The notes under the pieces are model-generated. The model was not told where the DNA came from. It searched no databases and worked only from the letters and a program-made list of their open reading frames with translations. Shown here piece after piece: positions 59,412-60,731 of a stretch of DNA of 64,000 bases (the first letter of the stretch is position 1; every line of letters starts with the position of its first letter). The position numbers and the translations under genes were made by a program. The DNA lies in the NCBI GenBank assembly GCA_964384805.1, contig CAYLLO010000001.1, positions 5,623-69,622 on the forward strand, given 5' to 3'. The stretch comes from an uncultured Staphylococcaceae bacterium (lineage in GTDB: Bacteria > Bacillota_I > Bacilli_A > ML615J-28 > CAG-313).

Positions 59412-59978
59412 TCACCTTTCTTGAAATAAATTTTTAACATATTCTCCTGCAATTATTTTTATTGACGTTCTAAATTCTGTGGATCCTACATAAAATGCTT
59501 CTCCAATAGCAGCCGAAATAATTATTCGTTGTTCTTCATCATTAAAGGCTTCTCCTATTTTATAAACATCTATTACATCTTTCATATCTGGAGCTGATAA
59601 TTTAAATATAAAAAGATATTGACTATTTTTTAAAATTGTAGAAGTTTTATTTCTCAATTCACTATTACCATTCCAATCAGAAATATTTTGTGTTGCAGGG
59701 ATAAAACTACCATTATATTTCCTAATCCGTTTATTCATTTGATAAAAGAAATCTAATGCAATAGGATATTTAGAATCTATAAATAAATGAGCTTCATCAC
59801 AAATAATCATTGTTTTTAAATCTAACCCCTTCTTATTTAATTCCCTAGTATTAATAACCTCTTGTTCAATAAACCGAAAAATTAACAATAGTGATAGGTA
59901 ACTCTTTGATAAAATCTCTAAGTTTTCCCCCACTCCCCACCGTACGTGACAGTTTCCCGTCATACGGCGTTCCATCAT
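59412..59978 (-). CDS. VirB4-family conjugal transfer ATPase, C-terminal exon/fragment
   Basis: VirB4 C-terminal motifs IICDEAHLF and FIPATQNISD; first about 20-25 codons of the ORF translate group II intron domain V/VI, so the real exon probably starts near 59900. Confidence 0.6.
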   Translation of the reverse strand: MMERRMTGNCHVRWGVGENLEILSKSYLSLLLIFRFIEQEVINTRELNKKGLDLKTMIICDEAHLFIDSKYPIALDFFYQMNKRIRKYNGSFIPATQNISDWNGNSELRNKTSTILKNSQYLFIFKLSAPDMKDVIDVYKIGEAFNDEEQRIIISAAIGEAFYVGSTEFRTSIKIIAGEYVKNLFQER

Positions 59979-60731
59979 TTATATATTTTGCAAATTTTCA
60001 AAGAAAACCATCTTCTTATAGCGATTAAATTTAGTATTACCATAAAACAAGTATGTAATTTATATTTTTTCACTTTGTATAATTTTATCTGAATCTTTGA
60101 ATTTAAATAATTAATTCTTCTAACATATAAATGACTAACGACTATCCCTCCACAGCTTATTATCACTGTTTCATCAGTACTATGTCGTCGCTCTCAGTTG
60201 AACTAATGCAGATTGTCATATTTTTTCTCTGCAACCGTTTCATCACCTGTAATAGCTCCACGTTTCAACCTTTCCACGTTCCAATATTTCTATCTTTGCA
60301 TATACCCTTAGGTGTATCCTTTAGTCCTGTATGCTTGATAACTCCCATAAAGTTATAAGGTCTTTCATAAAATGCAATTTTTACTTAACCTAACATACCA
60401 CCACAACTTGTGGAGAATAGCATTTCTACCATTTTGCTCTATAGACCCTTACTTTCGGATATTCGTCAGTTAATTAAGTACATTCTCACCATAGGTATTT
60501 TATAGAACCCCGGCATATCATTTACATTGTTTGTTTTCAAACAACTTTCCACAACTTTATTTCTAAATTGTTTGGGTAATTTCTGCCGACTTCACCGAAC
60601 TTTATACAATTAATTGATTACACAATTTATTGCATATCGGAGTATTAGGTAGGCGTTTCAGGTCGTTACACCATCATTCCACCAATCGAAATATTAGTTC
60701 TCTAGGCATTTGTATAAAGTCATTTTCCTTT
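59900..60731 (-). ncRNA. ORF-less group II intron-like insertion splitting the VirB4 gene (boundaries approximate)
   Basis: Minus-strand AACGCCGTATGACGGGAAACTGTCACGTACGGTGG (plus 59937-59971) matches the group II domain V consensus GAGCCGUAUG..GAAA..CACGUACGGUUC with a CGC triad and a compensatory pair; insert is GC-richer, ORF-free, has GAAA tetraloop hairpins; it lies between two halves of one VirB4 ATPase. The 5' GUGYG was not located. Confidence 0.5.

What the first reader, a model, noticed from the sequence alone, without database searches (positions are those of the whole stretch)
59900..60731. Conjugation ATPase (VirB4) gene split by an ~0.8 kb ORF-less group II intron-like element
ORFs 60731..62917 and 59412..59978 are the N- and C-terminal parts of a single VirB4-family ATPase. 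The first carries Walker A/B, the second the DEAH and ATQ motifs. They are separated by about 800 nt with no ORF and a clearly higher GC than the surrounding sequence. Read on the gene strand, the 3' end of the insert contains AACGCCGUAUGACGGGAAACUGUCACGUACGGUGG. This fits group II domain V: the conserved 10-bp/5-bp helices, a GAAA loop, a CGC variant of the catalytic triad, and a compensatory change at the basal pair. Several other GNRA-capped helices are visible upstream. Group II introns are known to home into conjugative-element genes, but an ORF-less (maturase-less) bacterial copy is uncommon. It would depend on a maturase encoded elsewhere, or it is a splicing-dead relic that inactivates the T4SS. 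I could not find a canonical GUGYG 5' end within the last ~25 codons of exon 1, so the 5' boundary and intron class are unresolved.
Basis: partly seen in the sequence, partly recalled or inferred. Interest (0 to 1): 0.75.

Follow-up and report, generated by a model that had tools for sequence, protein, structure and literature searches.

The report
ORF-less group II intron in VirB4
The gap in this conjugation ATPase gene is a real group II self-splicing intron that has lost its own reverse-transcriptase gene but kept an intact ribozyme, which is a well-documented kind of element rather than a new one.

Summary
Rfam finds a group II D1-D4 match (RF02004, 154 bits) and a DV-DVI match (RF00029, 56 bits) on the gene strand. 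Intron-less VirB4 homologs fix the boundaries at 60783..59888 (896 nt, 5' GUAUG, 3' ...CACUAU). Joining 60784 to 59887 restores the invariant motif ANAQMLLIFRFIEQE and gives an 869-aa VirB4.

The missed 5' end is a G3-to-A variant. More than 20 full-length copies (2.74 kb, 623-aa RT/maturase/HNH protein) share it and sit at exactly the same VirB4 codon in rumen and other metagenome contigs.

The window copy is an internal-deletion derivative of that intron:
- D1-D3 are 92.8% identical and DV-DVI 94.1% identical to the full-length form.
- The 156-nt DIV stub is only 71% identical and holds a decayed relic of the ORF's last codons.
- EBS1 and EBS2 pair perfectly with the flanking exon.

The ribozyme therefore looks maintained, not dead. 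No RT gene lies in the 64 kb, so whether a maturase is supplied in trans is untested.

Close precedents exist: the ORF-less B.th.I2 in the VirD4 gene of pAW63, and virB4-targeting introns in Streptococcus suis ICEs. This is a new member of a known kind, of modest interest.

The parts
60784..62917 (-). VirB4 exon 1. The ORF as listed starts at GTG 62917; the database protein P0001 starts 3 codons later. It ends with ...GCU CAA AUG C.
   Evidence: aligns to residues 1 to about 727 of 861-880-aa intron-less homologs; Walker A is present.
60790..60794 (-). IBS2 (UGCUC) in exon 1
   Evidence: 5/5 Watson-Crick pairs with EBS2 GAGCA.
60784..60789 (-). IBS1 (AAAUGC), the last 6 nt of exon 1
   Evidence: 6/6 pairs with EBS1 GCAUUU. 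The same loop register pairs 6/6 in 20 of 28 relatives, using 9 different EBS1 sequences.
59888..60783 (-). Group II intron, 896 nt, 5' GUAUGACACG ... CCUAUCACUAU 3'
   Evidence: Rfam hits, junction fixed by homologs, 92-94% identity to full-length introns at the same site.
60275..60777 (-). Domain I (approximate). It includes the RF02004 match at 60499..60702.
   Evidence: RNAalifold consensus of 31 relatives projected on the window.
60435..60439 (-). EBS2 (GAGCA), intron nt 345-349
60370..60375 (-). EBS1 (GCAUUU), intron nt 409-414
60196..60270 (-). Domain II (approximate)
60139..60188 (-). Domain III (approximate)
59976..60133 (-). Domain IV stub. The 9-bp basal stem CAUUUAUAU/AUAUAAAUG is kept and the IEP ORF is deleted.
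   Evidence: 156 nt against about 2.0 kb in the full-length intron; 71% identity plus indels.
59993..60054 (-). Decayed relic of the last ~20 codons and stop of the 623-aa IEP ORF
   Evidence: aligns to ...NTYRAMLNLSAIETKFSL* of the L122/L132 intron protein gene.
59937..59970 (-). Domain V (CGC triad, 2-nt bulge, GAAA loop)
59890..59935 (-). Domain VI. The bulged branch-point A is at 59895, with 7 nt between it and the 3' splice site.
59412..59887 (-). VirB4 exon 2 (starts UG UUA AUU ...; holds the DEAH and ATQ motifs)
59782..59783 (-). Empty second homing site (GCU CAU UUA U|UU, DEAHL|F). A related intron fills it in L001, L143 and L144.

Best explanation
This is a IIB-type group II intron of 896 nt (60783..59888, - strand) inserted after the first base of a Leu codon in the conserved ANAQM|LL motif of a T4SS VirB4 ATPase gene.

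It descends from a widespread 2.74-kb mobile intron that homes to exactly this VirB4 site and encodes a 623-aa RT/maturase/HNH protein. An internal deletion of about 1.85 kb removed almost the whole ORF and left a 156-nt DIV stub.

The ribozyme is still shaped for splicing:
- EBS1 and EBS2 pair with the last 11 nt of exon 1.
- DV supplies the catalytic centre.
- The bulged A at 59895 in DVI is placed to attack the 5' splice site.
- Exon ligation of 60784 to 59887 would give mRNA for a complete 869-aa VirB4.

Shown here: identity, boundaries, descent from the full-length intron, intact core, and differential conservation. Inferred: that splicing still occurs in vivo. This would most probably be assisted by a related intron-encoded maturase made elsewhere in the genome, as in other bacterial ORF-less introns. 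It could less probably occur unaided or with a host factor.
For: - **Covariance models.** RF02004 154 bits and RF00029 56 bits on the gene strand.
- **Junction.** All 13 intron-less homologs aligned read ANA/SQMLL(I/V)FRFIEQE. Only the 60784|59887 junction reproduces QMLLIF, with no stop, giving 869 aa.
- **Same site in full-length copies.** L122 and 20 metagenome loci carry a 2741-2743-nt intron with a 623-aa IEP at the same codon and the same GUAUG 5' end. The IEP family has more than 120 variants at 97-100% identity.
- **Differential conservation.** Window against L132: D1-D3 607/654 identical, DV-DVI 80/85, DIV remnant 111/156 plus indels. Fisher p = 1e-12.
- **Substitution pattern.** Only 16 of 62 substitutions fall in paired columns, although 45% of nucleotides are paired (binomial p = 0.0015). 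Two pairs changed on both sides and 148/156 pairs are still canonical.
- **Exon binding.** EBS1:IBS1 is 6/6 and EBS2:IBS2 is 5/5, with an A-U for G-C double change relative to the full-length copies.
- **DV and DVI.** DV folds correctly and DVI has a bulged A 7 nt from the 3' splice site.
- **Horizontal acquisition.** Host VirB4 genes are only 60% identical in both nt and aa, while the introns are 93% identical.
- **Host gene and population.** Both exons are intact. The same interrupted gene appears in two further samples (L002, L152).
- **Precedent.** ORF-less bacterial introns are served by a related IEP in trans (PMC3245105, PMC2504315, PMC1196294).
Against: - No RT or maturase gene lies in the 64-kb window, and the rest of the genome could not be searched.
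- The deletion removed the Shine-Dalgarno and start-codon part of DIV. In the Ll.LtrB model this part forms the high-affinity IEP-binding site (my knowledge, not tested here).
- Five predicted D1 pairs are non-canonical in the window copy but canonical in L132.
- The ORF-less architecture rests on one MAG assembly. The two independent Logan contigs stop 96-171 nt into the intron.
- No expression data are available.
- Part of the contrast between core and DIV could reflect descent from an unsampled full-length variant with a different DIV.
Confidence: 0.68

Rival explanations
1. Splicing-dead relic. After losing its maturase gene the intron can no longer be removed, so VirB4 is truncated at 728 aa and the T4SS is inactive. 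The good conservation only reflects a recent deletion.
For: - No IEP in the window.
- The 5' DIV leader is partly deleted.
- Bacterial group II introns generally need their IEP in vivo (PMC2504315 text).
- Five weakened D1 pairs.
Against: - The DIV remnant has diverged four times more than the catalytic domains (29% against 7%, p = 1e-12). The deletion is therefore not recent relative to the divergence, yet the core stayed intact.
- Substitutions avoid paired positions.
- EBS2/IBS2 show a compensatory change specific to this host gene.
- Both exons are free of stops or frameshifts over 869 codons.
Confidence: 0.25
2. Maturase-independent intron. The genome has no related IEP at all, and the intron is removed by self-splicing or with a recruited host protein.
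For: - The ribozyme is conserved without a resident ORF.
- No RT in 64 kb.
- The DIV binding-site region is degraded.
Against: - Database authors report that ORF-less bacterial introns almost always coexist with a related ORF-containing intron (PMC3245105).
- The full-length relative is extremely widespread.
- Only about 64 kb of the genome was inspected.
Confidence: 0.1
3. Assembly artefact. The short form arose by mis-joining reads from a full-length intron, or from another organism's copy.
For: - The intron shares stretches of more than 40 identical nt with the widespread full-length intron.
- Two Logan assemblies break there.
Against: - The DIV stub is a contiguous, AT-shifted, indel-bearing sequence. 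It aligns colinearly to both ends of DIV and differs from every full-length copy.
- A chimera would show near-identical segments instead.
Confidence: 0.03

Closest known systems
Unnamed full-length VirB4-homing group II intron. Example: MAG 'Clostridia bacterium' RGIG3255, contig JAFSLQ010000047.1, IEP MBQ6980188.1. Also found in many rumen and other metagenome contigs.
   Same: - Identical insertion codon (ANAQM|LL) and identical GUAUG 5' end.
- Identical EBS1.
- D1-D3 and DV-DVI 92-94% identical.
- Same Rfam models.
   Different: - It carries a 623-aa RT/X/HNH ORF in DIV and is 2741-2743 nt long.
- Its host VirB4 is only 60% identical and has 45% GC.
- Its EBS2 is GAGCG rather than GAGCA.
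B.th.I2 of Bacillus thuringiensis plasmid pAW63 (PMC1196294)
   Same: - An ORF-less group II intron of about 0.9 kb (935 bp) with GC above its surroundings.
- It splits a T4SS ATPase gene of a Gram-positive conjugative element.
- It derives from an IEP-encoding relative.
   Different: - It interrupts the VirD4 coupling protein, not VirB4.
- Its parent B.th.I1 lies on the same plasmid.
- Sequence relatedness to the window intron was not tested, because the pAW63 record is not in the collections.
B.c.I7 ORF-less copies on Bacillus cereus pE33L466 (PMC2504315)
   Same: Internal deletion leaving only the first and last few bases of the RT ORF. The authors propose rescue in trans by a complete copy.
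   Different: - Intergenic ectopic sites.
- Several nearly identical copies.
- The complete copy is known to be in the same genome.
virB4-, helicase- and coupling-protein-targeting group II introns of Streptococcus suis ICEs (PMC12479173)
   Same: Group II introns that home to conserved motifs of VirB4 in integrative conjugative elements. They must be spliced for conjugation and cause false pseudogene calls.
   Different: - They target a DPEXE motif of VirB4, not ANAQM|LL or DEAHL|F.
- They are described as IEP-encoding.
Unannotated ORF-less intron on Clostridium botulinum pCLK/pCBH-type plasmids (CP006901.1 around 219.1-219.9 kb)
   Same: Same Rfam D1-D4-5 type, about 855 nt, no ORF, about 73% identical. 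It splits a gene of a large plasmid typed MPF_T.
   Different: - Canonical GUGUG 5' end.
- A different host gene (methylase/helicase).
- Different EBS1 (UUUUAC).

Membership tests
Group II intron ribozyme | Domain V: roughly 34-nt helix with a catalytic triad, a 2-nt bulge and a GNRA loop | tested here: met
   RF00029 56 bits against a gathering score of 40. The fold gives 13 bp, a 2-nt bulge and a GAAA loop. The triad is CGC, as in all relatives recovered with the DV pattern.
Group II intron ribozyme | Domain VI with a bulged adenosine 7-8 nt upstream of the 3' splice site | tested here: met
   The bulged A is at 59895, with 7 nt between it and the splice site at 59888|59887.
Group II intron ribozyme | Domain I architecture matching a curated D1-D4 covariance model | tested here: met
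   RF02004 group-II-D1D4-5, 154.2 bits against a gathering score of 34.5, full model length.
Group II intron ribozyme | EBS1/EBS2 loops in D1 complementary to the last 10-12 nt of the 5' exon | tested here: met
   EBS1 GCAUUU:AAAUGC is 6/6 and EBS2 GAGCA:UGCUC is 5/5. The EBS1 register is supported by covariation across 28 relatives.
Group II intron ribozyme | Conserved 5'-terminal pentanucleotide (consensus GUGYG) | tested here: inconclusive
   The 5' end is GUAUG: G1, U2, Y4 and G5 fit the consensus, but position 3 is A. The same variant occurs in all 21 IEP-encoding copies at this site, and GUACG occurs in the sister intron. It is a lineage trait rather than a lesion. The epsilon partner could not be pinpointed.
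Group II intron ribozyme | Removal joins the exons in frame and restores the host protein | tested here: met
   The 60784|59887 junction gives QMLLIFRF, identical to the homologs, and an 869-aa ORF.
Group II intron ribozyme | Actual splicing by a lariat or hydrolytic pathway | not testable with these tools
   No transcript data are available.
ORF-less (IEP-deleted) bacterial group II intron | No RT/maturase ORF in domain IV | tested here: met
   DIV is 156 nt. tblastn with three related IEPs finds nothing with E below 1 in the window, and no YADD motif occurs in any frame.
ORF-less (IEP-deleted) bacterial group II intron | Derivation from an ORF-containing intron (relic of the ORF, colinear flanks) | tested here: met
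   A 62-nt relic of the ORF 3' end and the 5' DIV leader align to L122/L132.
ORF-less (IEP-deleted) bacterial group II intron | [quoted passage not shown] | not testable with these tools
   Only the 64-kb window is held and it contains none.
IIB structural type (as opposed to IIA) | No IIA-type delta-delta' pair next to EBS1; EBS3-IBS3 used instead | tested here: inconclusive
   The nucleotide 5' of EBS1 (U) cannot pair with the first exon-2 base (U). The same holds in the C. botulinum relative (U against C). EBS3 was not located because the script failed. The Zimmerly class was not assigned.
VirB4/TraE-type T4SS ATPase (host gene) | P-loop ATPase domains and full-length colinearity with VirB4 homologs | tested here: met
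   Pfam P-loop_TraG 43.9 bits, DUF87 35.6 and AAA_10 28.2, all above their cut-offs. Coverage is 100% of 861-880-aa homologs, one of which is named VirB4 family by NCBI.

The most novel reading that the evidence does not exclude
The host genome contains no group II maturase at all, yet selection keeps this ORF-less ribozyme splicing-competent. That would mean a free-living or gut bacterium removes a group II intron from an essential conjugation gene without any cognate intron-encoded protein, either by true in-vivo self-splicing or with a recruited host factor. It would be a bacterial parallel to the maturase-independent introns of organelles.
Probability: 0.1. Interest if true: 0.7.

Novelty: new member of a known kind. 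Interest (0 to 1): 0.3.

Why it matters
**Annotation.** The two 'VirB4 fragments' are one gene, not a pseudogene. The same applies to the C. botulinum plasmid gene and to many metagenomic VirB4 calls.

**Biology.** This is a clean natural example of a group II intron that lost its reverse transcriptase but kept its ribozyme under purifying selection, inside a gene needed for conjugation. It comes with the parent element at the same site in other bacteria. That pairing makes trans-complementation, or maturase independence, directly testable.

It does not change what is known about group II introns.

Tried and rejected
- **Wrong junctions.** My first two junction guesses (60787|59887 and 60788|59888) gave QML-IF or QLL-IF, one residue short of every homolog, and were dropped.
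- **Broad 5'-end pattern.** A scan of viral contigs gave 0 hits.
- **Genome scan.** It did not return the source genome, so the search for a resident IEP failed, although it did deliver L122.
- **pAW63.** Accession DQ025752 is not in the plasmid collection, so relatedness to B.th.I2 is untested.
- **Intron class.** Comparing the E. faecium IEP with PDB chains did not discriminate intron classes: LtrA, GsI-IIC and the others scored alike.
- **Epsilon-epsilon'.** The covariation scan was uninformative, because many invariant GU dinucleotides fit.
- **EBS3.** The regex for 3' ends failed, so EBS3/IBS3 was not determined.
- **Rejected ideas.** A second intron copy or an RT pseudogene in the window; the short ORFs inside the intron as genes, since they show no similarity to any IEP.

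Full report
**1. Observation**

On the - strand, ORF 60731..62917 (728 aa) and ORF 59412..59978 (188 aa) are separated by about 750 nt. A scan of the whole window against Rfam at gathering thresholds gives two intron matches on that strand:
- group-II-D1D4-5 (RF02004) at 60702..60499, 154.2 bits, E 2e-34, full model length.
- Intron_gpII (RF00029, domains V-VI) at 59972..59888, 56 bits, E 3e-8.

It folds into a 13-bp helix with a 2-nt bulge and a GAAA loop. A DVI helix follows, whose bulged A lies 7 nt from the 3' end of the Rfam match. GC is 33-35% in the insert against 24-27% around it.

**2. Boundaries**

A search with a provisional spliced product returned more than 1,200 VirB4 homologs. 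The best full-length ones are 861-880 aa, 61-73% identical, and cover 100% of the query. One is named 'VirB4 family type IV secretion system protein [Bacilli bacterium]'.

All 13 intron-less homologs I aligned read ANA(Q)MLL(I/V)FRFIEQE across the gap. My first junctions lost one Leu. The only junction that reproduces QMLLIF is exon 1 ending ...CAA AUG C at 60784 and exon 2 starting UG UUA AUU at 59887.

- The intron is therefore 60783..59888, 896 nt. It begins GUAUGACACG and ends CCUAUCACUAU.
- The spliced ORF is 869 codons with a single terminal stop.
- It hits P-loop_TraG, DUF87 and AAA_10 above the Pfam cut-offs.

**3. Origin of the intron**

BLAST of the intron against plasmids found ORF-less relatives of about 73% identity on C. 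botulinum pCLK/pCBH-type plasmids. It also found IEP-containing relatives on Enterococcus plasmids.

One of them, L122, matches intron nt 1-716 at 90% identity and the 3' 150 nt at 80% identity, with about 1.86 kb between the two matches. L122 comes from MAG 'Clostridia bacterium' RGIG3255 (goat reticulum).

L122 carries a 2741-nt intron with a 623-aa ORF (YADD, HNH; Pfam RVT_1 + HNH). It is inserted at exactly the same place in its VirB4 gene...CAA AUG U|GUAUGACACG ... CUAUCGCUAU|UG CUU GUU UUC.

The IEP has more than 120 database variants at 97-100% identity. Looking up two of them gave 20 loci from contigs up to 2.8 Mb. Most show the order VirB4 exon 1 (729 aa), IEP (623 aa), exon 2 ORF (193 aa). 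All 20 carry the intron at about 92% identity to the window copy and at the full length of 2743 nt. This VirB4 codon is therefore the natural homing site of a very successful mobile intron. GUAUG is its normal 5' end.

**4. The window copy is a deletion derivative**

Aligned to L132, the three parts of the intron differ sharply in conservation:

| Region | Identical / aligned | Identity |
|---|---|---|
| D1-D3 | 607/654 | 92.8% |
| DV-DVI | 80/85 | 94.1% |
| DIV remnant (156 nt) | 111/156, plus 56 gap columns | 71% |

The 156 nt between D3 and DV align only to two things. One is the 5' DIV leader. The other is the last ~60 nt of the IEP ORF plus the 3' DIV tail. A 62-nt stretch (60054..59993) is a recognisable but decayed relic of codons ...NTYRAMLNLSAIETKFSL*. 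The 9-bp basal stem of DIV is intact.

The host genes are only 60% identical at both the nt and aa level, with 24% against 45% GC. The intron was therefore acquired horizontally, long after the VirB4 genes diverged. No RT-like sequence and no second intron copy exist in the 64 kb.

**5. Functional or dead?**

Several independent lines indicate a maintained ribozyme.

- *Differential conservation.* Mismatches are 45/156 in the DIV remnant against 52/739 in the catalytic domains (Fisher p = 1e-12). If the whole element had been drifting since the ORF was lost, the core should look like the remnant.
- *Substitution pattern.* Of 62 differences from L132 in D1-D3, only 16 fall in columns paired in an RNAalifold consensus of 31 relatives, although 45% of nucleotides are paired (binomial p = 0.0015). 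Two pairs changed on both sides (C-G to U-A, A-U to G-C) and six by wobble-type single changes. In the window copy 148/156 pairs are canonical, against 152/156 in L132.
- *Exon binding.* EBS1 GCAUUU pairs 6/6 with the last six exon bases. The same loop register pairs 6/6 with the 5' exon in 20 of 28 relatives, using nine different EBS1 sequences, which validates the assignment. EBS2 GAGCA pairs 5/5 with UGCUC. The full-length copies have GAGCG against CGCGC/CGCCC with one mismatch, so the window shows a double change that fits its own exon.
- *Host gene and population.* Both exons are open and colinear with the homologs. The interrupted gene is seen in two further samples (L002 identical; L152 a variant strain).

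Several points weigh against this.
- The SD and start-codon part of DIV is gone. In Ll.LtrB this part forms the main IEP-binding site (my knowledge, untested here).
- Five peripheral D1 pairs are weakened.
- No maturase gene was found in the part of the genome available.
- There are no RNA data.

I put 'still spliced' at roughly two in three and 'dead relic' at one in four.

**6. Mechanism**

*Inferred from established group II biology.* In the pre-mRNA, D1 docks the 5' exon through EBS1/IBS1 and EBS2/IBS2. The 2'-OH of A59895 attacks the phosphate 5' of G60783. The freed exon-1 3'-OH then attacks the 3' splice site after U59888. This yields ligated mRNA for the 869-aa VirB4 and an intron lariat. 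Unspliced RNA would give a 728-aa protein lacking the DEAH and ATQ region.

*Inferred and untested.* Because bacterial group II introns normally need their IEP as a maturase, the likeliest helper is a related IEP encoded elsewhere in the genome. Database authors note that ORF-less bacterial introns are almost always accompanied by a related ORF-containing intron (PMC3245105). The same is proposed for B.c.I7 and B.th.I2 (PMC2504315, PMC1196294).

**7. Comparison with known systems**

- The nearest published analogue is B.th.I2 of pAW63. It is a 935-bp, GC-elevated, ORF-less group II intron that splits the VirD4 homolog of a Gram-positive conjugative plasmid, with its parent B.th.I1 nearby (PMC1196294).
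- Group II introns that target conserved motifs of virB4, the helicase and the coupling protein of ICEs were described in Streptococcus suis. The authors make the same point that they create false pseudogenes (PMC12479173).
- ORF-less members are not rare in this particular lineage. Among the roughly 44 non-VirB4 loci recovered, 13 have estimated intron lengths of 750-1100 nt. This sample is biased by the search pattern.
- Structural type is IIB-like. There is no IIA-style delta-delta' next to EBS1. I did not locate EBS3 or assign a Zimmerly class. The CGC triad is shared by every relative examined.

**8. Verdict**

New here are:
- the exact splice sites;
- the explanation of the 'missing' GUGYG;
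- the identification of the parent intron and its homing site;
- evidence that the ribozyme has been kept under constraint after ORF loss.

None of this is unexpected for group II introns in conjugative elements. It is a new member of a known kind, with interest about 0.3. The only reading that would be notable is maintenance in a genome with no maturase at all. That cannot be excluded, but it is unlikely (about 0.1).

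Noticed in passing
window 59782..59783 (- strand); L001 4137..4366; L143 6097..8854: The same VirB4 gene family has a second group II homing site about 35 codons downstream (DEAHL|F). 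It is empty in the window. A sister intron fills it in two metagenome loci that carry both introns, and in a 90%-identical Bacilli VirB4 whose first site is empty. The sister intron has a GUACG 5' end, a 621-aa IEP 70% identical to the first, and a ribozyme about 80% identical.
   Followed up: partly
L003 about 3927..4773 (CP006901.1) and L005 (NZ_CP013684.1): C. botulinum pCBH/pRSJ10-type plasmids carry an unannotated ORF-less group II intron of about 855 nt, matching RF02004 and RF00029. It lies between two CDSs annotated separately as an Eco57I-type methylase or SF2 helicase and a 'helicase-related protein'. These are probably one split gene.
   Followed up: partly
L078, L089, L095, L110, L020, L123 and others (genome-contig loci): Many relatives in Bacillaceae, Planococcaceae and Paenibacillaceae genomes sit immediately after ...GAYGARTAYCARGAY (a DEYQD helicase motif). 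Several of these are ORF-less, with estimated lengths of 760-930 nt.
   Followed up: no
window 51945..52368 (-): Bacterial RNase P class B RNA (246 bits) with an insertion of about 81 nt relative to the model. Together with the T-box leader, this fits a low-GC Bacillota host using the standard genetic code.
   Followed up: no
window 31924..32153 (-) and 22593..22663 (-): A T-box leader (125 bits) lies upstream of the 876-aa ORF 29239..31869. An L21 leader (47 bits) is also present.
   Followed up: no
window 55062..59372: The T4SS genes abut housekeeping genes: truB (55994..56881), ribF (55062..56003) and pnp (52379..54529). A 525-aa protein with a weak T4SS-pilin C-terminus lies at 57795..59372. 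One edge of the conjugative element is therefore near 57.7 kb, and the rest runs off the window at 64000.
   Followed up: no
L002 5279..5449; L152 about 4320..4466: Two independent Logan assemblies of the same or a closely related organism end 96-171 nt inside the intron. At that point the intron is identical over more than 40 nt to the widespread full-length intron. Other copies therefore exist in those samples, either in the same genome or in other bacteria.
   Followed up: partly
L091 5372..6660: Two DV matches lie 1.2 kb apart on one strand in Metalysinibacillus jejuensis. This may be tandem or nested short introns.
   Followed up: no
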